Shown here: piece after piece, positions 23,909 to 49,744 of the stretch
Layout: each line of letters starts with the position of its first letter
Position numbering within the stretch: the stretch's first letter is position 1
Source of the DNA: an uncultured Bacillales bacterium
GTDB taxonomy: Bacteria > Bacillota_I > Bacilli_A > RF39 > UBA660
Reading direction: 5' to 3'
Length of the DNA: 64,000 bases
NCBI GenBank assembly: GCA_949948745.1
Contig: CATLHA010000002.1
Location: forward strand, 11,195-75,194
Made by a program: the position numbers and the translations under genes
The notes under the pieces: model-generated
What the model was told of the DNA's origin: nothing
The model's input: only the letters and a program-made list of their open reading frames with translations
Database searches by the model: none

Positions 23909-24454
23909 CTATACAGTCATTAATTCTTCTTCTTTTTCTTTTGCCTTTTCATCAATTAGTTTATTATATTTATTCACTAAATCCTGTACTTGATTCGTCA
24001 AAGATTTTTGCTCATCTTCACTTACTTCCATTTTATCGATTTCTTCAATCCCATCATGACGAATGTTACGAATAGCGATTTTTCCCTCTTCTCCCATAGC
24101 CTTAACTTGTTTTACTAATTCTTTTCTTCTATCTTCTGTTAAGACAGGAATAATAATACGAATTGTTTCTCCATCATTATTAGGCGTATATCCTAAATTT
24201 GATTCAAAAATAGCCTTTTCAATCCCAGCCAAACAACCACGATCAAATGGCTTAATCAATAATTGTCTTGCTTCAGGAACTGAAATAGTTGCCAATTGTT
24301 TTAATGGTGTTGGAGTACCATAATACTCTACTGTAATTCCATCTAAACTACTTGGATTAGCACGACCAGCACGTACAGTTGCAAATCTCTTTTCCAAATT
24401 CTCAATTGCTTTTAGCAATCTTTCTTCTACTGATTCAATAATATTTGTATCCAT
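23909..24454 (-). CDS. frr: ribosome recycling factor
   Basis: Typical RRF sequence (…VRAGRANPSSLDGITVEYYG…); 181 aa. Confidence 0.9.
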   Translation of the reverse strand: MDTNIIESVEERLLKAIENLEKRFATVRAGRANPSSLDGITVEYYGTPTPLKQLATISVPEARQLLIKPFDRGCLAGIEKAIFESNLGYTPNNDGETIRIIIPVLTEDRRKELVKQVKAMGEEGKIAIRNIRHDGIEEIDKMEVSEDEQKSLTNQVQDLVNKYNKLIDEKAKEKEEELMTV

Positions 24455-24603
24455 AATTTCCTTCCTTTATCTATATTATATATTTATTATATTATAAAAA
24501 GAAAATTATGGAAAGACTTTTTCAAGATAATATTTGTATTTAAGAAAGAAACATGTTATTATAAAAAGCAATAAATTATAAGCATGAAAAGGAAAGAACA
24601 AGC

Positions 24604-25512
24604 ATGAATCAATTAAAAAAAGATTTAGAAATGGTATCTACTCTTCTAGATGGTAAGAAATTAACTATAGATGAAAAAAAATATCATGGAAAAATTTATT
24701 TAGCACAAACAGAAAATTCAAAAAAATTATATAGAGATTTATCAGAAAATTGGACAAATAGTCTCTTCATTGGTGGTAGTGGTGATCAACCTATTAATAG
24801 TATCTTATATGGTTGTAAAAATTTGATAATTACTGATATTAATCATAACGCAATCTACTTCATTTTATTAAAAATTGCAGCAATTCAAGCTTTAGATTAT
24901 GAAGAGTTCTTATCATTTTTCTTGATTCATTTTCATGCAAATAATGAATTTAAAAAAATAAAAGATTTCTTAGATAAAAGAACATATTATTTTTGGAAAA
25001 CTGTGTTTACAAGTTATAAAGAATCCATAATAAGAGAACAGTTATTTTTTGAATTAGATGGAAACTCAAATCGATATATGGAACGAATTGTTATTAATAA
25101 AAATCCATATTTAAATGAAAATTCATATAGAAAATTAAAAGAAGAAATAAAAAAAGTTAATATTGAAGTAAATTTTCTTAACATACAAGATTTATCAAAA
25201 AAATTGAAAATAAACTTCTTCGATAAAATATATTTATCTAATATAATATTAAGCATGGGATTAACATTAGAAGAATATTGGGAATTCCTACAACAAGACA
25301 TCATACCACTATTAAATGACTATGGAGAATTAATGGCAGGATATTTTAATTTAACAGGCTATGAATATGCAAATTTATCCAATTTAGGAACCACAGATGA
25401 AATAATTTATTTTTTTAAACAAAAAGACTTTAAACAACATTTAATCTTTGATGATGAAATAAGACAATTAAATTCAGCACTTGTTTACCAAAAAACAAAG
25501 AAAAAAGGATAA
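24604..25512 (+). CDS. DUF3419/BtaA-like class I SAM-dependent methyltransferase-fold protein
   Basis: The only plus-strand gene. Motif I-like FIGGSGDQ with acidic LIITDIN; DKIYLSNII resembles the DUF3419 C-terminal region. Confidence 0.4.
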   Translation: MNQLKKDLEMVSTLLDGKKLTIDEKKYHGKIYLAQTENSKKLYRDLSENWTNSLFIGGSGDQPINSILYGCKNLIITDINHNAIYFILLKIAAIQALDYEEFLSFFLIHFHANNEFKKIKDFLDKRTYYFWKTVFTSYKESIIREQLFFELDGNSNRYMERIVINKNPYLNENSYRKLKEEIKKVNIEVNFLNIQDLSKKLKINFFDKIYLSNIILSMGLTLEEYWEFLQQDIIPLLNDYGELMAGYFNLTGYEYANLSNLGTTDEIIYFFKQKDFKQHLIFDDEIRQLNSALVYQKTKKKG

Positions 25513-25530
25513 TCAATTTGATTATCCTTT
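25504..25530. terminator. palindromic bidirectional terminator shared by the convergent plus-strand gene and tsf
   Basis: AAAGGATAATCA-ATTT-GATTATCCTTT. Both stop codons (25510-25512 and 25522-25524) lie inside the arms. Confidence 0.55.
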
Positions 25531-26397
25531 AATTTGACTCATTACTTCTTCAGCAAAGTTTTCTTGTTTCTTTTCGATTCCTTCTCCTACTTCATAACGA
25601 ATCATTTGTAGGATTTCTCCACCGTTAGATTGAACAAACTTACCAACTGTTTCTTTATCTTCTGCTTTAATAAAGATCTGATCTACTAAACAAATATCTT
25701 GATAATATTTATTTACTTTACCAACTAAGATTTGTTCAACACGATCTTCAGGTTTTCCTTCTTTTAATAATTGTTCTTTCATAACAGCTTTTTCACGCTC
25801 TAAAACTTCAGTAGGTACATCTTTAGAAGTTAAATAAGCTGGTTTCATAGCAGCTACATGCATAGCTACATCTTTTGCAACTTCTTCATTTGCTCCTTCT
25901 AATAATACTAAAGTACCAATTTTTCCTCCCATATGAGAGTAAGCTCCAAAAACTTGTGAATCTGTTTTAACAACTCTTTCAAACCTTCTAAATGATAACT
26001 TTTCTCCAATTTTAGCAACTGTTGCAGCCACCATATCGCTAACAGTTCCTTCTTCAGTAGAAAGTACTAATGCTTCATCCATAGTAGATACTTCACTATT
26101 TAAAATAAGATCTGTTAATTTACTAACAAAAGTTTGGAATTCAGCATTTTTAGCAACAAAGTCAGTTTCAGAATTTACTTCTAATATTACTGCCTTGTTT
26201 CCTTCAATTTTAATACTTGTAATTCCTTCAGCAGCAATTCTAGAATTCTTCTTTTCTGCTTTTGCCATTCCATTTTCTCTTAGCCAATCAATGGCCTTAT
26301 CCATATCACCTTCAGATGCTTGTAAAGCTTTTTTACAATCCATCATTCCAGCTCCAGTTCTTTCTCTTAATTCTTTTACATCGCTTGCGCTAAACAT
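25522..26397 (-). CDS. tsf: elongation factor Ts
   Basis: N-terminus MFSASDVKELRERTGAGMMDCKKAL. Confidence 0.9.
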   Translation of the reverse strand: MFSASDVKELRERTGAGMMDCKKALQASEGDMDKAIDWLRENGMAKAEKKNSRIAAEGITSIKIEGNKAVILEVNSETDFVAKNAEFQTFVSKLTDLILNSEVSTMDEALVLSTEEGTVSDMVAATVAKIGEKLSFRRFERVVKTDSQVFGAYSHMGGKIGTLVLLEGANEEVAKDVAMHVAAMKPAYLTSKDVPTEVLEREKAVMKEQLLKEGKPEDRVEQILVGKVNKYYQDICLVDQIFIKAEDKETVGKFVQSNGGEILQMIRYEVGEGIEKKQENFAEEVMSQIKG

Positions 26398-26415
26398 ATT
26401 TTTCCTCCTAGAATT

Positions 26416-27321
26416 TTATTTTAAAGCTTCAAGTAATTCAGCTTTTTTCATTGAAGTATATCCTTCAACTCCTGCTTCTTTTGCCATTGCTTTTAATTCA
26501 GCAACTGATTTTTTTGATAAATCTTCTTCTGTTGTTTCTTCAGTAAATACTTCTTCTACTTTTTCAGTTGATTTATTTTCTTTCTTTTCTTTCTTAGCTG
26601 CTTTTGATTTATCATCCTCTGTTAAATAATCAATTACTTCATTTCCGTTAACTTCAGCAATAGCATTAGTTAAAGCACCAATCATTAATTTAACACTTCT
26701 AACAGCATCATCATTTCCAGGAATAACATAGTCAACCATATCTGGATCACAGTTAGTATCAACTACACCAAATACTGGAATTCCTAAAATTCTAGCTTCC
26801 TTAATTGCGATTTCTTCTTTTCTAGGATCTACGATAATTAAAGCCTCAGGAACTTTCTTCATATCGCGAATACCACGTAAATTTTTATTTAATTTTTCAT
26901 ATTCTTTCTTAATTTGAATTACTTCTTTTTTAGGTAATACTTCGAAAACACCATCTTTTTCCATTTTTTCGATGTCTTCCATTCTCTTAATTCTAGTACG
27001 AATTGTTTTAAAGTTAGTTAATGTACCACCTAACCATCTTTCATTAATGAAATACATATTAGTTCTAGTTGCATTCTCTTCTGCTGCTTCTTGTGCTTGT
27101 TTCTTAGTACCTACATAAAGTACCTTTCCACCATTTTCAGCGATTTCTTTTAAAGCCTTATAAGCTTCTTCAATCTTCTTTGCTGTTTTTTGTAAATCGA
27201 TAATATAAATATCATCACGAGTTGTGAAGATGTATTCCTTCATCTTTGGATTCCATCTTCTTTTTTGGTGTCCAAAATGAACACCTGCTTCTAATAAATA
27301 ATTCATTGAAACTACTGTCAT
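26416..27321 (-). CDS. rpsB: 30S ribosomal protein S2 with C-terminal Rho_N-like extension
   Basis: Typical S2 core; the tail …[30 protein letters not shown] matches the Rho N-terminal (SAP-like) helix-hairpin motif. Confidence 0.85.
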
Positions 27322-27407
27322 AATTTTCTTCCTTTCGTTTTTACCTTCTATTAATTTCTAAAATCTATCACCATTTAGGCACTCGATAGATCAATTCACT
27401 AATATGA

Positions 27408-27947
27408 TTATTTTTCTAAAGCAGCTACTAATTCCGCCTTTTTCATTGAAGTATATCCTTCAATTCCTGCATCTTTCGCCATAGCTTTTAAATCAGCTAC
27501 AGTCATTTTAGAGAAATCTTTTGTTTCTTCTTTCTTTGTTTCCTTTACTTCAGCTTTAGCTTCTGTTTTTTTACTAGCTACAGCACTATTAGAAACTTTT
27601 CCAGCTTTTGCAATTTCTACTAATTCACTGAATGCTTTTTCATCATTAATTGCGATTTCACTTAACATTTTTCTGTTGATTTCAACACCAGCTTTTGTTA
27701 GACCATCAATAAATCTAGAATAACTAATGTCATTCATTCTACATGCTGCGTTAATTCTAGCAATCCACAATTTTCTGAAATCTCTTTTCTTTTGTTTTCT
27801 ATCTCTAAAAGCATATTGTCCAGAATGCATTAATTGTTCTTTTGCTGTTTTATATAATCTATGTTTGCTTCCGAAATACCCCTTAGCTTGTTTTAATACT
27901 TTTTTATGACGAGCCTTAGTTGTAGCTCCATTTTTAACTCTTGCCAT
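27408..27947 (-). CDS. rplT: 50S ribosomal protein L20 with C-terminal Rho_N-like extension
   Basis: L20 core ([19 protein letters not shown]…) followed by a ~60-aa tail ending [32 protein letters not shown]. Confidence 0.85.
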
Positions 27948-27976: not shown

Positions 27977-28165
27977 TTAAATGATATTTTTAAATCTTTT
28001 AGCATCCCCACTGCTTAAACGAACACTCTTTCTTTTTTTTCTGTTATAAGCTGCGCTCTTGCTTCCTGTGTTATGTCTAGAACCTGGATGACCCATTGTA
28101 ACAGTTCCGCTTTTTCTTACGTTCAATACTTTTTTAGTTCCTTTATGAGTTTTTAACTTTCCCAT
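27977..28165 (-). CDS. rpmI: 50S ribosomal protein L35
   Basis: 62 aa basic protein MGKLKTHKGTKK…. Confidence 0.85.
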   Translation of the reverse strand: MGKLKTHKGTKKVLNVRKSGTVTMGHPGSRHNTGSKSAAYNRKKRKSVRLSSGDAKRFKNII

Positions 28166-28174
28166 TTTGTCCTC

Positions 28175-28705
28175 CTATTTTTCTTTTTTTGGTGCTAATA
28201 ACATTATCATAGTTCTACCATCCAATTTTGCTGCCTGTTCAATTATTGAAATATCTTCTAATTTTGCGGCAAACTTATCTAGTACTTCTTTTCCTAATTC
28301 AGTATGTGCCATTTGTCTACCTTTAAAACGAATAGAAAGTTTTATTTTATCTCCCTTTTCAAGATATTTAGACACATTTCTTAATTTCGTTTCAAAATCT
28401 CCAATATCGATTACTGGTGATAAACGAAATTCCTTTAATTGTGAACTAGCTGCACGCTGTTTCTTAGTTGCCTCTTTTTCTTTCTTTTGTTTTTCATAAC
28501 GATATTTGTTATAATCCATCACTTTACAAACTGGTGGATTTCCATTTGGATTCATTAAAACCAAATCTAGTCCTGCGTAGCTTGCCAGTGTCAAAGCATC
28601 TTTGATTGGCTTTACACCAACTTGTTCACCATTAGGACCAATAACTAGAACATTACTTGCTTTAATTTGTTCATTGATCAGTAGACCATTCTTATTGTTT
28701 GCTAT
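28175..28705 (-). CDS. infC: translation initiation factor IF-3, probable non-AUG (AUA/AUU) start
   Basis: IF3 N- and C-domains (…INEQIKASNVLVIGPNGEQVGV…). The only in-frame ATG (28720) sits inside the SD GGAGGTG, so the start is inferred at the ATA of YIANN. Confidence 0.8.
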   Translation of the reverse strand: MANNKNGLLINEQIKASNVLVIGPNGEQVGVKPIKDALTLASYAGLDLVLMNPNGNPPVCKVMDYNKYRYEKQKKEKEATKKQRAASSQLKEFRLSPVIDIGDFETKLRNVSKYLEKGDKIKLSIRFKGRQMAHTELGKEVLDKFAAKLEDISIIEQAAKLDGRTMIMLLAPKKEK

Positions 28706-28720
28706 ATAAAACACCTCCAT

Positions 28721-28855
28721 TAAATATAAAAGGTGGATTTCTTAAAATCCACCCAAAAGCACACAATTATATCAAATAATTTTATTGGCTCTTTACCTAC
28801 TACTATTCGCAAGTCAGGTGGATTTCAAATCGCTTTCCTTTTAATTTCGTTTACT
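28721..28855 (-). promoter_or_regulatory. L20 leader-like autoregulatory attenuator of the infC-rpmI-rplT operon
   Basis: Three copies of the AAATCCACC / GGTGGATTT element, including a GGGTGGATTT-TAAGA-AATCCACC hairpin followed by a U-run. The upstream copy allows an alternative pairing. Confidence 0.55.
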
Positions 28856-28884
28856 ATTATAATAAGAATATTAACAAATGTCAA
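28856..28884 (-). promoter_or_regulatory. consensus sigma-A promoter TTGACA-17-TATAAT for the infC operon
   Basis: Exact hexamers with a 17-nt spacer on the minus strand. Confidence 0.65.
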
Positions 28885-28932: not shown

Positions 28933-31731
28933 CTACTTAGACTTTGAAGAATCTTCAGTTAATTCAGAAGTTTCTGAAGTTTGTTCCATAGTCATATTTT
29001 CAGTAGCAACTTCAGCAGCAAGTTCATTAATGGCTTGATTAACAATATCTTCACTAACAATATCAGAAGCATATGCAGCAGCTTGATCTTGATCGTATTG
29101 TTCCATTGCTAAATTAATTTGATTAATGATATCCTCATCACTAAATATATTTAATTTTCCGCCTTCAACTGAAGAATCTACAATTGGAACAAAGCCCTCA
29201 GGTAAATCAAATTCATCTTCATTACCTTCTTCTTGTTTCTTCTTTTCTTCCTCTTCTTGTCTTTTTCTTTCTTCTTCTTCTTGTCTTTTTCTTTCTTCTT
29301 CTTCTCGTTTTTTTCTTTCTTCTTCTTGACGACGTTTTTCTTCCTCAAGATCTTTGTTTGTATCTTCACTATTAGAATCATTGATTACATCCTGAATAGT
29401 TGTACTACCAGTTCCATCAGTGCTAATATTTTCAATATAATCACTTATAATAGAATCACCTAAACCTGATTCATTTTTAGTTTCTCCACCAGTAATTAGT
29501 CCTAATTTTCTTGCTTCTTCCTCGGCAGTTTTATCCCCAGCATTAGCTCTATTGATTAAATTAGTGTTATATTCTGCAATACCTGCGTTTTTACCATCTG
29601 TATAACCTAATTTAGCAGAATTATTTAAAGCAGTAGCATTATCACCAGTAGCATTATAATTCATGTAACGAGATTCTTCAGCTGGAGCACTTGCATTACT
29701 ACCATATTGTTTATAATAGTTGAATGCTGATTTATATGCTTCATTATAAACTGATTGAGATTGTTGTTCAATTTTGTCTACTTCAGCTTCAGCTTTTTTC
29801 TGAGTTTCAGCATTATCTTTACCTAAAATACCTTGTTTTTGATTAGCTTCCTCTTCTGCTTTATTTAACATTTCTTCAGCTTGCGCAGCAGTAGCTCCAC
29901 GATTAATTAATTCATCCTTAGCAGCTGCTCTATTTTCCTCCATAGTACCTTGAGAGAAAGTTACAGGATTAGTAGCACCGTTTCCTTTTCCATTACCCTT
30001 AGAACCATAATTTACAGATAAACTATCCTTTATTCTCATAACTTCTTTTGCCCATTTTTCAGCAAATACTTCTGTATGAGATGGATATCTATTTAATTCT
30101 AACATTTTAGTTCTAATTAATTCTTCAATATCAGTAACAGCATAAGTTCTTTCACGAAGCTCATCTAACTTAGAAACAACTTGAGTTGTAGAAATACTAT
30201 TAAGATCTTCTTCAGTAAGAGATTCACCATTAGCAATTCTTTGACGAATCATTTCTAATTGTTGTTCACTAGATAAATCTACATCTGCATTTTGCATATC
30301 ACGAATGTATTCATTAGCACTTGTAATTTTTCCATAAATATATTCACAAGTAGCATCTGTAATACTCATAACATTACTTGATTTATTAATATAATATCCA
30401 TTAGAATTATATCCAACACGTTTTAAATAATTCTCACTATCAAAATTTTGCATTCCTGTACGGAACCAAGCATCAAATTGTGGTCCAAACAAGTCTGTTT
30501 TAACTTCGATTGGTTGTTCACTACCATTTTTATAGATTAATTCTTTTCCAGTATAGTTATAAGCTTTACAGAACTCCGTATCAGCAATATACATAGTTCT
30601 TGAAATAAATGCAGTAGCTTCATCACTAACTTTTGTATCTGAATCTGTAATATCACTAGCAAAAATATCATCATATAATGCACGTTGTGCTTCAGCAGCA
30701 GCTTTTCTATCTTTATCATTTTCTGCATTTAACATTGCATTATGACCTTCGATAAATTTACGTACAATTTCTTTATCGTGAGCTGTATCAAAGAATGCTG
30801 TTACAGCATCAATATCCTCTGTACTTAAAGCTCCATCTTTAAACCATTGTTGGAATACTTCATAAGCTTGTTGAATAATAACTGTAGAATCTTCCATAAG
30901 TGGTTTTCCTTGTTCATCAAACATTGGATTACCATCATTATCAAGCATAGGAATTTGATTAAACAATTCCCCTCCCATAATTTCAGCAATCTCTTCATCT
31001 GAATAATTATGAGAAACTAAATAAAGTAATCTAGCTTGAGGAACTGTAAGACCTAACTTTCCTTCTACACCAGCTTCACTTGTATAAGTATGTGTAGACA
31101 TACGAGTATTAAGAGCATCATATGCTGGATAGAAATTATCTTGATAGAAAGTAGCTTGTAAACTTTCAGGAGCATTTTCTACATAAAACTCCCAACTAGT
31201 TCCTTTAATCTCAGCTTTGGTAACAGTTTGTTCTTCTGTAACTTCATTTTGAACTTCCTCTTTTTCTTCCTTGTTACGAGCTTGAGAAATAAGATAGGCT
31301 CCCCCACCAATTGCAGCAGCACCAACAGCAGTACCTGCACCGATACCTACAGCCTTTAATATCTTACTTTTCCTTTCATTCTTTAAACAATCTTCTAAAT
31401 AATTCTCATATTCATCAACTACAAGAGAATAATCATCTTCATTAAAAACACCTCTAGCAATTGATTTATCTTCATATTGAGTAAAAACTGCTTTTATATT
31501 ACTCCTGTCTATGTTTTGTGCTTTCATAGACCTTTTAATCAAGTTATCCACTGCACGAGTTGCAGCCTCTCTTTCATCTTCTTCAGGAGTAATTCTAATG
31601 TAACTACCATCATTTAATTCAATAATTGTGTCTAATAAGCAGGCATCTAAATTAGAAGTATCAGTCAAAGACGAAACATGAGTAACGTCTTGACCTTTAA
31701 TTCCTCTTAAATCTCTATAAGTCATATCCAT
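28933..31731 (-). CDS. large single-pass membrane protein with coiled-coil and Glu/Lys/Arg-rich repeats (932 aa)
   Basis: A TM segment at AVGIGAGTAVGAAAIGGGAYLI follows a ~125-aa N-terminal domain. The C-terminal part contains EEEKRRQEEERKKREEEERKRQEEEERKRQEEEEKKKQEE. Confidence 0.6.
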   Translation of the reverse strand: MDMTYRDLRGIKGQDVTHVSSLTDTSNLDACLLDTIIELNDGSYIRITPEEDEREAATRAVDNLIKRSMKAQNIDRSNIKAVFTQYEDKSIARGVFNEDDYSLVVDEYENYLEDCLKNERKSKILKAVGIGAGTAVGAAAIGGGAYLISQARNKEEKEEVQNEVTEEQTVTKAEIKGTSWEFYVENAPESLQATFYQDNFYPAYDALNTRMSTHTYTSEAGVEGKLGLTVPQARLLYLVSHNYSDEEIAEIMGGELFNQIPMLDNDGNPMFDEQGKPLMEDSTVIIQQAYEVFQQWFKDGALSTEDIDAVTAFFDTAHDKEIVRKFIEGHNAMLNAENDKDRKAAAEAQRALYDDIFASDITDSDTKVSDEATAFISRTMYIADTEFCKAYNYTGKELIYKNGSEQPIEVKTDLFGPQFDAWFRTGMQNFDSENYLKRVGYNSNGYYINKSSNVMSITDATCEYIYGKITSANEYIRDMQNADVDLSSEQQLEMIRQRIANGESLTEEDLNSISTTQVVSKLDELRERTYAVTDIEELIRTKMLELNRYPSHTEVFAEKWAKEVMRIKDSLSVNYGSKGNGKGNGATNPVTFSQGTMEENRAAAKDELINRGATAAQAEEMLNKAEEEANQKQGILGKDNAETQKKAEAEVDKIEQQSQSVYNEAYKSAFNYYKQYGSNASAPAEESRYMNYNATGDNATALNNSAKLGYTDGKNAGIAEYNTNLINRANAGDKTAEEEARKLGLITGGETKNESGLGDSIISDYIENISTDGTGSTTIQDVINDSNSEDTNKDLEEEKRRQEEERKKREEEERKRQEEEERKRQEEEEKKKQEEGNEDEFDLPEGFVPIVDSSVEGGKLNIFSDEDIINQINLAMEQYDQDQAAAYASDIVSEDIVNQAINELAAEVATENMTMEQTSETSELTEDSSKSK
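29215..29340. repeat. 27-nt tandem repeats (tcttcttcttgtctttttctttcttct-like) encoding the (EEERKRQEE)n tract
   Basis: Directly visible tandem periodicity in the coding sequence. Confidence 0.7.
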
Positions 31732-46579: not shown

Positions 46580-49500
46580 TTAAACAACAAGGGAACCTTT
46601 TACTACATTAGAATTGCTAGATTTTGTGGTAAGCATGGAATCTACTAAATTAGAATTATTACTTGTATAATTAATAATAAGTTTTGCTGGAGAATTCTTT
46701 GCTGTTCCAAAAAAAGCTTCTGAATATGTAGTATTTGTTGTACGTATTGTAAACGTTGTAGTTAAACGCCAACAATTGTAAAAGATTTTATCCATTCGAG
46801 TCACATTTCTTGTATCAAAACCACTTAAATCAAAATCACCTAATGATGTACAATTAAAAAACATTTCCTCCATACTTGTCACCTTTGAAGTATTAAAGTT
46901 AGTAACATTTAGATTTCCTAATCTTTGACAATCTCGAAACATTCTTGTCATATCAGTTACACTAGATGTATCAAAATTCTGAAGAATAGTAGTTATATAC
47001 CAACATGCCCGAAACATAGAGTCCATGGTTATTACTTTACTGGTATTAAAATAACGCAAATCTAAAGACTGAATTTTTCCTAATTCAAAAAACATATAAC
47101 TCATATTTGTTACATTAGAAGTATTAAAACTACTAACATTCAATTCAGGAAGATTTTTACAAGAACAAAACATATAAGCCATATTTGTTACTTTAGATGT
47201 ATTAAATTTACTTACATCAAGATTAGTTAAAGACTTACAAGCATGAAACATATAAGCCATATTTGTTACTTTGGATGTATTAAATTTACTTACATCTAGT
47301 GCCGTAATATTATTACATTCTTGAAACATATAGCCCATATTTGTTACATTTGATGTATTAAATTTACTTACATCAAGATTAGCTAAAGACTTACAAGATT
47401 GAAACATATAAGCCATATTTGTTACTTTGGATGTATTAAACTTACTTACATCTAAACTTGTTAAACTACTACAACCACGAAACATATTTTGCATTGTTGT
47501 AACTAAAGATGTATCAAAAGTATCTATATTTATATTTAATACTTCTAATTTATTACATTCTTGAAACATTCCAAGCATCGTTGTAACATTTTTTGTATTG
47601 AAATTTCTGATATCTAAATTCTCTAATTCATAGCAATTATTAAACATATTAGATGTATTAGTTACCTTTTCTGTATTAAAACTGCTTAAATTAACTGATT
47701 TTAAATAATTTGTATTACTAAACATAACCCTCATTGTTGTTACATTACTTGTATCAAAATTACTTAAATCTAAATTAACCAATCCAGTTCCTGCAAACAT
47801 CGCGGTCATGTCTGTTACTTTTGATGTATTAAAACTACTTAAATTAATTTCTTGAAGTTTAGAAGTTCCTCCAAACATCCACTGCATTGTTGTTACATTA
47901 CTTGTATCAAAACTACTAACATCTAAACTTGTCAATGCCAAATTGTCTCGAAACATATTTAACATGGTTGTTACTTTACTTGTATCAAATGTCCTTAAGT
48001 CTAAACTCTTTAAACTCTCACACCAACCAAACATAGAACTCATATCAGTAACATTAGATGTATCAAAATATTCTATTCCCTCCACACTTTCTAATCTCCT
48101 AAATTGATTAAATAAATAGGAACTATTTTTATTCGCTATTACTCTATTATCCCCTTGGATATATATTGTATAAGTAGAAGAATCTTCTACATTAGGTACA
48201 ACTCTTCCCATTACCCCAAAATTATTTTCTTCTGACAAATCAAAGCTTTCTAGAGTATTATACACTTCTTTAATTTGATCTTGAAATACTACCTTTGTTA
48301 CCGAATCTTTATACTTCCATATCTCCTCTGCTCCTGTATCCGAATTTAATGCAACTTGCATTTTAGGAACTGGCGCTACATAAATTTCTCCACTCATAGA
48401 TTTCGCCAAAGATAGTTTTCGCCACTCTGCTTTTAATACTACATCTGCTTCTGGCATAATAAAGTAATCATCATTTATTTGCTTTGCCTCTACTCCCATC
48501 ACTTTCCATTCTTGAAATCGATATCCTTCACATTCTGGAACTATTTCACTAATGGATACCTTATCAAATACAAAGTGATTTTCTGATATTGGTATATTCC
48601 TTACAGTACATCCCTCTGGTGCATTTCCTTCATAACTTACTCGATAATTATTCGATATTCTTGGTGTTTCTGTACTTGTTATATTTTCTTCTATCCCACC
48701 AATACTACTTTCTACTTTCTCTTTATTATTTGTATTATAAACACCTACTTGATTTATATAATTACTCTTTAATTCTACATCAAGTTCCATCTTTAATTTA
48801 GATCCTGATTTTAAATTATCAATTGTCCATGTTACTTTTTGTTCTTCTTGATTAAATGTAACATTTCCTTGACTGACTGTAATATCATTACTACTTTCTA
48901 ATTTAAAATTACTAGTATCTATATAATCTGTTAATACAAAATTATCATATGAAGTTGGTACAATAGATGCATCAAATAATATATTATTTAGTGTTTCTAT
49001 ATCTGCTAGATATTGATTATCTGATACTTTCTTGATTGGATCTAGAATATCCATCCCCATTTCATATTGAATTCCATTAACTATAACTTGTGGATATTCT
49101 TGTTTTAGATATTGAAAATAACTTTCCTCGTTTGGTGTATCTTCACAAGGATAACCATCTGTTAAAAATAAAACAATACAATTTCTATCATTACTTGATA
49201 TATAATTTTTTAATATATTATCTACATTGATTAAAGCTTGATAATAATTTGTTGTTCCTTTTTCACTTAGATTATTTATTAAACTTATCAAAGTAGTTTT
49301 ATCATTCGTAAAATCCGATAATATTTCTGAATCTGTATCAAATGTAATTAAGGCAGCTTTATTATTAGAATCTGATAGTAATGTATCAACAAGTCCTATA
49401 CTGTCTTGTTTTACTCTTTCTATTTTATTTCCACTCATGGAACCTGAAATATCCAGTACAAATATAATATCTCTATTTTTATCTTCTGTTTTCAATATGG

Positions 49501-49744
49501 TATCTATTTGAAAGGTAATCCTAGCTTTTCCACTACCTATCCACTCTGCGCTCTTCTCTACTTGAAAGCTTCCTGGTTCTTTTTTATTATAATTTAACTT
49601 TTCTGATGAAAAATTAATACTCTTTATTGGAGTAACTAGTGCAAAAGAACTATAAAGTAATCCTGTTATTGTTAATAAAAAACCTACAACTACAATTGAT
49701 AGTAAAACAAACTTATTTGGTACTTTCAAAATATCATTCTTCAT
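46580..49744 (-). CDS. secreted/surface protein with N-terminal vWA domain and long array of DUF285/BspA-like ~23-aa repeats
   Basis: Signal/TM segment, vWA MIDAS motif VLDISGSMSGNK, then ~25 repeats of LDxSxFNTSxVTNMxYMFxxCxxL. Confidence 0.75.
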   Translation of the reverse strand: MKNDILKVPNKFVLLSIVVVGFLLTITGLLYSSFALVTPIKSINFSSEKLNYNKKEPGSFQVEKSAEWIGSGKARITFQIDTILKTEDKNRDIIFVLDISGSMSGNKIERVKQDSIGLVDTLLSDSNNKAALITFDTDSEILSDFTNDKTTLISLINNLSEKGTTNYYQALINVDNILKNYISSNDRNCIVLFLTDGYPCEDTPNEESYFQYLKQEYPQVIVNGIQYEMGMDILDPIKKVSDNQYLADIETLNNILFDASIVPTSYDNFVLTDYIDTSNFKLESSNDITVSQGNVTFNQEEQKVTWTIDNLKSGSKLKMELDVELKSNYINQVGVYNTNNKEKVESSIGGIEENITSTETPRISNNYRVSYEGNAPEGCTVRNIPISENHFVFDKVSISEIVPECEGYRFQEWKVMGVEAKQINDDYFIMPEADVVLKAEWRKLSLAKSMSGEIYVAPVPKMQVALNSDTGAEEIWKYKDSVTKVVFQDQIKEVYNTLESFDLSEENNFGVMGRVVPNVEDSSTYTIYIQGDNRVIANKNSSYLFNQFRRLESVEGIEYFDTSNVTDMSSMFGWCESLKSLDLRTFDTSKVTTMLNMFRDNLALTSLDVSSFDTSNVTTMQWMFGGTSKLQEINLSSFNTSKVTDMTAMFAGTGLVNLDLSNFDTSNVTTMRVMFSNTNYLKSVNLSSFNTEKVTNTSNMFNNCYELENLDIRNFNTKNVTTMLGMFQECNKLEVLNINIDTFDTSLVTTMQNMFRGCSSLTSLDVSKFNTSKVTNMAYMFQSCKSLANLDVSKFNTSNVTNMGYMFQECNNITALDVSKFNTSKVTNMAYMFHACKSLTNLDVSKFNTSKVTNMAYMFCSCKNLPELNVSSFNTSNVTNMSYMFFELGKIQSLDLRYFNTSKVITMDSMFRACWYITTILQNFDTSSVTDMTRMFRDCQRLGNLNVTNFNTSKVTSMEEMFFNCTSLGDFDLSGFDTRNVTRMDKIFYNCWRLTTTFTIRTTNTTYSEAFFGTAKNSPAKLIINYTSNNSNLVDSMLTTKSSNSNVVKGSLVV
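46840..47900. repeat. intragenic 66-69-nt tandem repeats (near-identical copies) encoding the DUF285/BspA-like modules
   Basis: catatttgttactttggatgtattaaatttacttacatc and variants recur every ~69 nt (e.g. 47263, 47332, 47395). Confidence 0.75.

What the first reader, a model, noticed from the sequence alone, without database searches (positions are those of the whole stretch)
26416..27500. Ribosomal proteins S2 and L20 both carry a near-identical C-terminal Rho_N-like tail, from a duplicated ~70-nt module
S2 ends …[30 protein letters not shown] and L20 ends …[32 protein letters not shown]. This matches the Rho N-terminal helix-hairpin (SAP-like, nucleic-acid binding) consensus L..L+..AKE.GIEGYS.M+KAELI.AL. 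The encoding DNA (about 26420-26500 and 27412-27495) is ~85-90% identical, indicating recent duplication or gene conversion between two r-protein genes. The genes also sit in an unusual arrangement, infC-rpmI-rplT immediately upstream of rpsB-tsf. Two different core r-proteins sharing a grafted RNA-binding module is unusual and may tether mRNA or Rho-like functions to the ribosome.
Basis: partly seen in the sequence, partly recalled or inferred. Interest (0 to 1): 0.55.

Follow-up and report, generated by a model that had tools for sequence, protein, structure and literature searches.

The report
Shared Rho-N-type tail on ribosomal S2 and L20
In this uncultured gut bacterium and many of its relatives, two neighbouring ribosomal protein genes (S2 and L20) each end in the same small nucleic-acid-binding module on a floppy linker, and the two copies are kept alike by repeated copying between the genes; it is real and conserved, but its function has not been tested.

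Summary
rpsB (26416-27321, minus strand, 301 aa) and rplT (27408-27947, minus strand, 179 aa) each consist of a normal core, a charged linker that is predicted to be disordered, and a C-terminal module of about 35 aa. The module scores above Pfam's Rho_N threshold in both proteins and is predicted to fold as helix / extended loop / helix. The DNA similarity is about 105-115 nt at 81-89% identity. It has sharp edges and is the only sizeable dispersed repeat in the window.

It is not an artefact: eight independent assemblies carry both tails exactly. It is not a recent duplication either. 78 of 80 related species-level genomes (uncultured gut Bacilli, 'Tenericutes'-like MAGs) have the S2 tail. 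32 share the infC-rpmI-rplT-rpsB-tsf order, and 26 carry both tails. Two tail types switch together within genomes, against the core-gene tree. In several genomes the two copies are closer to each other than to any orthologue. This indicates repeated gene conversion in both directions. The tail is under purifying selection (dN/dS about 0.18).

The function is inferred: a tethered, low-specificity nucleic-acid (probably RNA) binder on both ribosomal subunits. NCBI already has an 'L20/unknown domain fusion protein' model. I found no paper that describes the fusions.

The parts
26416..27321 (-). rpsB, ribosomal protein uS2, 301 aa, TAA stop. The core is residues 1-225.
   Evidence: Pfam Ribosomal_S2 at 331.9 bits over residues 9-223. 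NCBIfam TIGR01011 rpsB_bact at 341.3 bits against a cutoff of 76.3.
26524..26646 (-). S2 linker, residues 226-266. It is K/E/T-rich with net charge -6, and relatives cannot be aligned across it.
   Evidence: AlphaFold2 pLDDT is below 50 for residues 240-265. The 39-sequence alignment has no invariant column between K238 and L276, and only two nearly invariant ones (K240, K243) before D267.
26419..26523 (-). S2 C-terminal Rho_N / HeH module, residues 267-301 ([35 protein letters not shown]).
   Evidence: Pfam Rho_N at 37.9 bits against a cutoff of 24.9. Predicted helix 273-283, loop, helix 293-300, with pLDDT about 78-80.
27408..27947 (-). rplT, ribosomal protein bL20, 179 aa, TAA stop. The core is residues 1-117.
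   Evidence: Pfam Ribosomal_L20 at 161 bits over residues 3-109. TIGR01032 rplT_bact at 169.5 bits against a cutoff of 65.65.
27516..27596 (-). L20 linker, residues 118-144, K/E/A-rich.
   Evidence: AlphaFold2 pLDDT is below 50 for residues 119-142.
27411..27515 (-). L20 C-terminal Rho_N / HeH module, residues 145-179 ([35 protein letters not shown]).
   Evidence: Pfam Rho_N at 45.6 bits. On the tail alone, SAP scores 23.9 bits, exactly at its cutoff. Predicted helix 150-159, extended loop, helix 170-178, with pLDDT about 75-78. The only PDB sequence matches are the N-termini of Rho factors: 7oqh, 8hsj and 3l0o.
26411..26525 (.). Copy 1 of the direct DNA repeat (S2 tail plus stop codon).
   Evidence: the repeat finder family D4: 115 nt, 81% identical ungapped, copies 995 nt apart. 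Sharp boundaries are shown.
27406..27520 (.). Copy 2 of the direct DNA repeat (L20 tail plus stop codon).
27977..28165 (-). rpmI (L35), 62 aa.
   Evidence: Pfam Ribosomal_L35p is recorded for the identical gene in independent contigs.
28175..28720 (-). infC (IF3), 181 aa.
   Evidence: IF3_N and IF3_C are recorded for the identical gene.
28719..28841 (-). L20 leader-like element upstream of infC, containing an attenuator hairpin at 28731-28754.
   Evidence: Rfam RF00558 at 37.6 bits, E 1.4e-4, which is below the gathering score of 58.7. A terminator-like hairpin is found.
28856..28884 (-). Consensus sigma-70-type promoter, TTGACA-17-TATAAT.
   Evidence: 12 of 12 consensus positions match. This is a consensus match only, not evidence of function.
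25522..26397 (-). tsf (EF-Ts), 291 aa, the last gene of the apparent five-gene unit.
   Evidence: Pfam EF_TS is recorded for the identical gene. A terminator-like hairpin lies at 25504-25530, and none lies between rplT and rpsB.

Best explanation
uS2 and bL20 of this organism are ordinary ribosomal proteins to which a small domain of about 35 aa has been added. The domain is of the Rho_N type (Pfam HeH clan, which also holds SAP and LEM) and folds as helix / extended loop / helix. It sits at the extreme C-terminus, behind a charged, disordered linker of 27-41 residues. The addition is old and is shared by a clade of uncultured gut Bacilli. In the sub-clade where the infC-rpmI-rplT operon lies directly upstream of rpsB-tsf, the two tail-coding segments are about 1 kb apart in direct orientation, and they have repeatedly overwritten each other, in both directions, by short-tract gene conversion. 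That is why they look nearly identical within a genome. All of this is shown.

The function is inferred. Each tail probably acts as a tethered, low-specificity nucleic-acid binder, most likely for single-stranded RNA. One hangs from the solvent side of the 30S subunit near the mRNA exit and platform (uS2), and one hangs from the solvent side of the 50S subunit (bL20). Together they would raise the local concentration of mRNA, or of rRNA during assembly, at the ribosome surface. The two copies are functionally interchangeable, and this is what allows conversion to go unpunished.
For: Domain identity:
- Pfam Rho_N scores above its gathering score in both proteins.
- The only PDB sequence relatives of the tail are Rho N-termini.
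- AlphaFold2 predicts a helix-loop-helix tail at pLDDT 75-80 behind a low-confidence linker in both proteins.

Age and reality:
- 78 of 80 related genomes have the S2 tail. 32 have the same gene order, and 26 have both tails.
- All 120 best L20 homologues, and 119 of the 120 best S2 homologues, carry a precomputed Rho_N hit; the one exception is a partial sequence.
- Eight independent assemblies carry identical tails.

Gene conversion:
- There are two tail types: A (...[13 protein letters not shown]...) and B (...KINVTGMKKAEI...). S2 and L20 switch type together in separate branches of the core-gene tree.
- In L003, L004, L009 and L025 the two tails of one genome are closer to each other than to any orthologue. 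In L003 they are 96% identical at the nucleotide level, against at most 81% to any orthologue.
- L003 tail dS is 0.17, against a core dS of at least 0.66 between species.
- The tract has sharp edges in the window.
- In the window species both tails share a derived K-to-A change (KEAG / KDAG) where close relatives have KEKG / KDKG.

Selection:
- dN/dS is 0.18 over 104 orthologous S2 tail pairs.
- The conserved residues are hydrophobic core positions plus lysines, including the MKK at the start of helix 2.

Function by analogy:
- The isolated C-terminal 40 aa Rho-N motif of Arabidopsis RHON1 binds single-stranded RNA with low specificity, including rRNA fragments (PMC3458557).
- The Rho N-terminal helix bundle is described as positively charged and as helping RNA recruitment (PMC11347177).
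- In some relatives the HeH module of L20 (L006, L016, L020, L021) or of S2 (L068) is replaced by a lysine-rich tail. The S2 tail of L068 gives a weak histone-H1-like hit. This suggests that generic polyanion binding is the property being kept.
Against: - There is no experimental or structural evidence that the tails are retained on mature ribosomes. No solved ribosome contains an S2 or L20 with such a tail.
- The tails are only weakly basic. Net charge is +1 in the window and about +2.3 on average. The S2 linker is acidic, at -6.
- HeH, SAP and LEM domains can also bind double-stranded DNA or proteins, so the ligand is not settled.
- uS2 and bL20 lie far apart on the 70S ribosome (established ribosome structures, my own knowledge). 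A single localised role such as mRNA capture at the platform explains the S2 tail better than the L20 tail.
- The core-gene tree used to place the conversion events is a neighbour-joining tree on 827 aa with no support values.
Confidence: 0.5

Rival explanations
1. The tails tether ribosomes to DNA, as a SAP / LEM-like binder of double-stranded, AT-rich DNA. This would hold ribosomes at the nucleoid and favour coupled transcription and translation in a small, AT-rich genome.
For: The L20 tail scores exactly at the SAP gathering score (23.9 bits) and close to HeH/LEM (24.1 against 28.9). The L003 tail weakly matches the SAP-bearing C-terminus of Ku70, and the S2 tail of L068 is replaced by a sequence with a weak histone-H1-like DNA-binding hit. 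The window is 29% G+C.
Against: The best-scoring family is Rho_N, and its one tested stand-alone example (RHON1) binds single-stranded RNA and does not bind a double-stranded RNA fragment. No DNA-binding test exists for this subgroup. The SAP hit on S2 is below threshold, at 15.7 bits.
Confidence: 0.2
2. The tails are protein-protein adaptors that recruit one common partner to both subunits, for example an RNase, a helicase, RNA polymerase or a hibernation factor. Conversion between the copies is tolerated because the partner is the same.
For: The two copies are kept nearly identical within genomes even when the type changes. This would fit co-evolution with a single partner. RHON1 forms a complex with RNase E.
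Against: In RHON1 the Rho-N motif itself was shown to be the RNA-binding part. No candidate partner is encoded next to the locus. In some relatives the module is replaced by low-complexity lysine-rich tails, which is hard to reconcile with a specific protein interface.
Confidence: 0.15
3. The tail has no function on the ribosome. It is a neutral passenger segment that spread from rpsB to the adjacent rplT by local duplication and persists through conversion.
For: The L20 HeH module has been lost or replaced in at least four genomes (L006, L016, L020, L021), and the S2 module in one (L068).
Against: dN/dS is 0.18, and specific residues stay invariant while the adjacent linker evolves freely in sequence and length. 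The tail is retained in 78 of 80 S2 genes across deep divergence, with core identity down to 58%.
Confidence: 0.08
4. The repeat is a recent duplication, or an assembly artefact that collapsed or chimerised one locus.
For: The repeat can confuse assemblers. Contig L091 (protein P0123) switches from the S2 tail to the L20 tail exactly at the 25-nt stretch of perfect identity, and it is also chimeric upstream.
Against: Eight independent long contigs, up to 115 kb, carry both tails exactly. The two copies differ by dS 0.61. The arrangement is conserved in 32 species-level genomes.
Confidence: 0.02

Closest known systems
N-terminal helix bundle of transcription termination factor Rho (Pfam Rho_N, PF07498; HeH clan CL0306)
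   Same: The sequence motif is the same (L..LK..AK..GI.GYS.MKK.ELI.AL), with HMM scores above the curated threshold. A helix / extended loop / helix fold is predicted, and the lysines at the start of helix 2 are conserved.
   Different: The motif sits at the C-terminus of a ribosomal protein rather than the N-terminus of a helicase. No Rho OB-fold or ATPase follows it. It covers only model positions 1-36 of 43. There is no evidence of any role in termination.
Arabidopsis RHON1 (C-terminal Rho-N motif; PMC3458557)
   Same: A Rho-N motif of about 40 aa lies at the extreme C-terminus of an unrelated protein, preceded by a highly charged stretch. In RHON1 this motif alone binds single-stranded RNA, including 16S and 23S rRNA fragments, with low specificity.
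   Different: RHON1 is a plant chloroplast partner of RNase E, not a ribosomal protein. There is one copy, and no concerted evolution between paralogous tails.
NCBIfam NF011109 (PRK14537), '50S ribosomal protein L20/unknown domain fusion protein'
   Same: An L20 core is followed by an extra C-terminal region. Profile positions 163-225 align with both window tails (E 7e-6 for S2 and 2e-7 for L20). The window L20 scores 173.5 bits.
   Different: The score is below the curated cutoff of 187, so the window protein is not formally a member. The model names the extra part 'unknown domain' and covers L20 only.
NCBIfam 'sunset domain variant' models for S2 (NF051451) and L20 (NF051450)
   Same: NCBI curators have defined special C-terminally extended variants for exactly the same two ribosomal proteins.
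   Different: The window proteins match only the core and linker part of these profiles (290 against 710 bits, and 143 against 375 bits). The last 50 or so profile positions are not matched. I could not find out what the 'sunset domain' is.
Lineage-specific extensions of bacterial ribosomal proteins (for example those seen in the Mycoplasma pneumoniae in-cell ribosome model, bioRxiv 10.1101/2021.12.18.473270, listed)
   Same: These are conserved ribosomal proteins that carry clade-specific terminal additions in reduced-genome Bacilli and Mollicutes.
   Different: Here the addition is a recognisable folded domain shared by two proteins on different subunits, and it is homogenised by gene conversion.
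Concerted evolution of duplicated bacterial genes by gene conversion (for example tufA/tufB and rRNA operons; my own knowledge)
   Same: Paralogous segments within one genome stay more alike than orthologues across species do.
   Different: The converted unit is only about 100 nt, it encodes a domain shared by two otherwise unrelated genes, and the copies are about 1 kb apart in the same operon.

Membership tests
Pfam Rho_N (PF07498) / HeH clan | Profile HMM score at or above the curated gathering score (24.9 bits). | tested here: met
   S2 scores 37.9 bits and L20 45.6 bits. The tails alone score 42.0 and 43.5 bits.
Pfam Rho_N (PF07498) / HeH clan | Helix / extended loop / helix fold. | tested here: met
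   AlphaFold2 models give helix 150-159, loop, helix 170-178 for L20, and helix 273-283, loop, helix 293-300 for S2, at pLDDT 75-80. These are predictions, not solved structures.
Pfam Rho_N (PF07498) / HeH clan | Binds nucleic acid. | not testable with these tools
   This rests only on analogy with RHON1 and with the Rho helix bundle.
Transcription termination factor Rho | Rho_N is followed by the Rho RNA-binding OB-fold and the RecA-type ATPase. | tested here: not met
   The motif is the last 35 residues of each protein and a TAA stop follows. The only other Pfam domains are Ribosomal_S2 and Ribosomal_L20. The NCBIfam rho models match only positions 3-40.
Bacterial uS2 (TIGR01011 / PF00318) | Equivalog HMM score above its cutoff. 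| tested here: met
   341.3 bits against 76.3. PF00318 scores 331.9 bits.
Bacterial bL20 (TIGR01032 / PF00453) | Equivalog HMM score above its cutoff. | tested here: met
   169.5 bits against 65.65. PF00453 scores 161 bits.
NCBIfam NF011109 'L20/unknown domain fusion protein' | Whole-protein score at or above 187 bits. | tested here: not met
   173.5 bits, a near miss. Relatives score 158-180 bits. The tails do align to profile positions 163-225.
NCBIfam 'sunset domain variant' of S2 and of L20 (NF051451, NF051450) | Whole-protein score at or above 710 bits (S2) or 375 bits (L20), including the C-terminal domain. | tested here: not met
   290.4 and 142.7 bits. Only the core and linker part of each profile is matched.
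SAP domain (PF02037) | Score at or above 23.9 bits. | tested here: inconclusive
   The L20 tail alone scores 23.9 bits, exactly at the cutoff. L20 as a whole protein scores 21.0 bits, and the S2 tail 15.7 bits.
Gene conversion / concerted evolution | Paralogues within a genome are more similar than orthologues between genomes. | tested here: met
   In 12 of 52 tails the nearest tail is the paralogue in the same genome. In L003, L004, L009 and L025 this holds for both tails. L003 paralogue dS is 0.17, against an interspecies core dS of at least 0.66.
Gene conversion / concerted evolution | A discrete tract with sharp boundaries, and a character distribution that conflicts with the species tree. 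| tested here: met
   The boundaries are shown. The joint switching of tail types A and B on the core-gene tree is shown. That tree is neighbour-joining, with no support values.

The most novel reading that the evidence does not exclude
The two tails form one system. The same module is displayed on both subunits because it must engage one shared ligand, for example a nascent or messenger RNA, or an RNA polymerase or RNA-decay component. In reduced genomes that may have lost Rho or S1, this ligand binding would couple transcription, translation or mRNA surveillance. On this reading, gene conversion is favoured by selection because it keeps the two binding specificities identical. The fact that NCBI curators have separate 'sunset domain' variants for exactly S2 and L20 would then indicate a recurrent solution in which uS2 and bL20 are the preferred attachment points for ribosome-tethered accessory domains.
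Probability: 0.1. Interest if true: 0.75.

Novelty: new variant of a known kind. Interest (0 to 1): 0.42.

Why it matters
Lineage-specific additions to core ribosomal proteins are one of the few ways in which bacterial ribosomes differ, and most of them are featureless tails. Here a recognisable nucleic-acid-binding domain is displayed on flexible tethers from both subunits. This holds across a whole clade of abundant, uncultured gut bacteria with reduced genomes. If the tails bind RNA, they would be a ribosome-borne device for capturing mRNA or chaperoning rRNA, possibly compensating for factors lost during genome reduction. The locus is also a clean natural example of domain-sized gene conversion between two otherwise unrelated essential genes. 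In practical terms, the repeat produces chimeric contigs and chimeric 'proteins' in metagenome catalogues.

Tried and rejected
- A word-indexed homology search with the 42-aa tail gave only 10 short candidates and nothing about domain architectures.
- An exhaustive representative search with the tail was dominated by multi-copy Rho_N proteins. The single-copy, high-identity hits were mostly S2 or L20 fragments, or tails joined to unrelated N-termini. At least one of the latter is an assembly chimera at the repeat. This search therefore could not show which other protein families truly carry the tail.
- Nine literature searches found no description of Rho_N fused to ribosomal proteins, of the 'sunset domain', or of the 'L20/unknown domain fusion protein'. 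The search terms included Rho_N with ribosomal protein, PF07498, HeH/SAP/LEM, uS2/bL20 extension, 'sunset domain' and 'unknown domain fusion protein'.
- I looked for rho, rpsA or any obvious partner gene by scanning the window's larger ORFs against Pfam. None is present in these 64 kb. This says nothing about the rest of the genome.
- I considered whether the 86-nt rplT-rpsB spacer is a regulatory RNA. It holds only a modest hairpin (z -2.3) and gives no Rfam hit.
- I did not run fold search. The full-length models would match only the S2 and L20 cores.

Full report
**What is in the sequence.** On the minus strand the window carries infC (28175-28720), rpmI (27977-28165), rplT (27408-27947), rpsB (26416-27321) and tsf (25522-26397). 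rpsB encodes 301 aa and rplT 179 aa, against roughly 225-255 and 115-120 aa in solved bacterial ribosomes. Pfam Rho_N (gathering score 24.9) scores 37.9 bits on S2 and 45.6 bits on L20. SAP and HeH/LEM, which belong to the same clan, score near or below their thresholds.

**The DNA repeat.**
- The last 115 nt or so of the two genes are 81% identical ungapped and 89% identical with gaps.
- In a longer alignment the similarity starts abruptly about 105 nt before the stops and ends at the stops.
- It is the only sizeable dispersed repeat in the window.
- A profile of the tail finds no third copy in the six-frame translation.

**Not an artefact.** The exact L20 protein is indexed in 57 blocks of the contig collection. 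Of the 24 contigs read, eight places were fetched, from JGI, ENA, NCBI and Logan. These match the window over the five genes at 94.5-100% identity, and each contains both tail sequences exactly. One short contig (L091, protein P0123) does jump from the S2 tail to the L20 tail at the 25-nt stretch of perfect identity, and it is chimeric upstream as well. The repeat can therefore mislead assemblers, but the window itself is sound.

**Structure.** AlphaFold2, run with alignments of 39-40 homologues, gives the same picture for both proteins: the known core, a linker with pLDDT below 50 (L20 residues 119-142, S2 residues 240-265), and then helix / extended loop / helix at pLDDT 75-80. By sequence, the only solved relatives of the tail are the N-termini of Rho factors (7oqh, 8hsj, 3l0o; E 0.01-0.2). 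No solved ribosome has an S2 or L20 that aligns across the tail.

**Distribution.** A scan of one genome per species returned 80 related loci. All come from uncultured gut Bacilli, 'Tenericutes', Erysipelotrichaceae-like or Mycoplasmatota MAGs.
- 78 of the 80 S2 genes carry the tail. One of the two exceptions is cut off by the contig end. The other (L068) has a long lysine-rich tail with a weak histone-H1-like hit instead.
- 32 loci share the infC-rpmI-rplT-rpsB-tsf order, and 26 have the tail on both proteins.
- In L006, L016, L020 and L021, L20 ends in a K/A/T-rich low-complexity tail with no HeH module.
- All 120 best L20 homologues, and 119 of the 120 best S2 homologues, in a 5.8-billion-protein collection carry a precomputed Rho_N hit. 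The one S2 without it is a partial sequence.
- NCBI names such proteins simply 'ribosomal protein S2' or 'L20'.

**Concerted evolution.** The tails come in two types: A (...[13 protein letters not shown]...) and B (...KINVTGMKKAEI..., one residue shorter).
- Type A is found in 72 of 79 S2 tails, including every S2 gene that is not next to rplT. L20 tails are split 14 type A and 12 type B.
- On a neighbour-joining tree of the four core proteins, S2 has become type B in two separate branches, always in genomes whose L20 is type B. L20 is type A in branches nested among type-B relatives.
- In L003 the two tails are 96% identical at the nucleotide level, while the best orthologue reaches 81%. In L003, L004, L009 and L025 each tail is closer to its partner in the same genome than to any orthologue.
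- Synonymous divergence between the two tails of one genome is 0.17 in L003 and 0.61 in the window. Between the window and the nearest sampled species, core dS is 0.66-0.78.
- Close relatives of the window species keep protein-specific ends (S2 ...LLEALK, L20 ...VAALEK) but share the centre. The window species has the same derived K-to-A change in both tails.

Together these results show repeated short-tract gene conversion in both directions. They rule out a recent duplication.

**Selection.** Across 104 orthologous pairs of S2 tails, dN/dS is 0.18. Hydrophobic core positions and several lysines are invariant, whereas the linker has no conserved column and varies widely in length. Total S2 length among the closest homologues ranges from 297 to 343 aa, and some related loci encode still longer S2 ORFs. 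The tail is weakly basic, about +2.3 on average and +1 in the window.

**Expression context.** A perfect sigma-70 consensus lies at 28856-28884. It is followed by a sub-threshold match to the L20 leader (RF00558, 37.6 bits, E 1.4e-4) that contains an attenuator-like hairpin. There is no terminator-like site between rplT and rpsB, and one lies after tsf. The five genes may therefore form a single unit under L20 control. This is inferred from consensus matches only.

**How it probably works (inferred).** The closest tested analogue is Arabidopsis RHON1. Its C-terminal 40-aa Rho-N motif alone binds single-stranded RNA with low specificity, including rRNA fragments (PMC3458557). The Rho helix bundle is described as positively charged and as assisting RNA recruitment (PMC11347177). 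In some relatives the module is replaced by lysine-rich, in one case histone-H1-like, tails. This suggests that the property being retained is generic nucleic-acid binding. My best reading is a tethered, low-specificity RNA binder on the solvent faces of both subunits. DNA tethering, or recruitment of a shared protein partner, cannot be excluded.

**Comparison with what is known.** The module is a member of Pfam Rho_N, but neither protein is a Rho factor.
- NCBIfam NF011109, '50S ribosomal protein L20/unknown domain fusion protein', scores 173.5 bits against a cutoff of 187. Its C-terminal region aligns with both tails. An L20 fusion of this kind has therefore been catalogued before, with the added part left unidentified.
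- NCBIfam also has 'sunset domain variant' models for exactly S2 and L20. The window proteins do not match them, and I could not find out what that domain is.
- I found no paper on these fusions.

**Verdict.** The feature is real and conserved, and its evolution is interesting: a known small domain grafted onto two ribosomal proteins and homogenised by gene conversion. Its existence is already implicit in the databases, and its function is unknown. It is a new variant of a known kind and of moderate interest.

Noticed in passing
window 23909-25512: The usual rpsB-tsf-pyrH-frr order is broken. Between tsf and frr (23909-24454, minus strand) there is no pyrH. Instead an opposite-strand 302-aa DUF3419 gene lies at 24604-25512 (plus strand). 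The same layout is seen in the independent contigs.
   Followed up: partly
window 28719-28884: A perfect TTGACA-17-TATAAT promoter consensus is followed by a sub-threshold L20 leader match (RF00558, 37.6 bits against a gathering score of 58.7) with a terminator-like hairpin at 28731-28754. There is no terminator between rplT and rpsB, so rpsB-tsf may have been brought under L20-leader control.
   Followed up: partly
NCBIfam NF051451 / NF051450: NCBI curators maintain 'sunset domain variant' models for exactly the same two ribosomal proteins, S2 and L20. The window proteins match only the core and linker part of these models. I could not determine what the sunset domain is, or whether it is related to Rho_N.
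   Followed up: partly
L006:3309-3902, L016:3344-3907, L020:3286-3909, L021:3293-3910, L068:3887-5161: In some relatives the HeH module is missing and the protein ends in a long lysine/alanine/threonine-rich tail. This affects L20 in four genomes and S2 in L068; the L068 tail gives a weak histone-H1-like hit of 23.6 bits.
   Followed up: partly
L091:1583-1938 (protein P0123) and proteins P0208, P0211, P0216, P0247, P0253: Metagenome catalogues contain short 'proteins' in which this tail is joined to unrelated N-termini, such as a TopA fragment or a DnaC-like fragment. L091 is shown to be a chimera that switches at the 25-nt identical core of the repeat. The others probably arose the same way.
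   Followed up: partly
protein P0267: A 113-aa protein has an N-terminus resembling ribosomal protein bTHX (MGKGDKKSKKGKR...), a lysine/alanine-rich linker, and the same type of Rho_N tail. This may be a third ribosomal protein carrying the module in another lineage. The bTHX identification is by eye only.
   Followed up: no
proteins P0001 (293 aa), P0003 (239 aa), P0278 (524 aa), P0285 (452 aa): Some metagenomic L20 and S2 homologues contain internally duplicated core segments ahead of the tail. On its 124.7 kb contig (locus L090), P0001 has two L20 domains. Whether these are real tandem duplications or assembly errors was not resolved.
   Followed up: partly
window 28933-31731: A 932-aa ORF upstream of infC has no family assignment apart from a low-complexity E/K/R repeat (EEERKKREEEERKRQ..., a spurious MAP7 hit). 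Its length varies between strains, from 924 to 956 aa in the independent contigs.
   Followed up: no
window 46580-49744: [quoted passage not shown] They are encoded by a 78-nt (26-aa) tandem repeat array at about 46754-48014.
   Followed up: no
window 27322-27407: The 86-nt rplT-rpsB spacer folds into a modest hairpin (-14.4 kcal/mol, z -2.3) ahead of the rpsB ribosome-binding site. It gives no Rfam match. It could be an S2-responsive element or a weak attenuator.
   Followed up: partly
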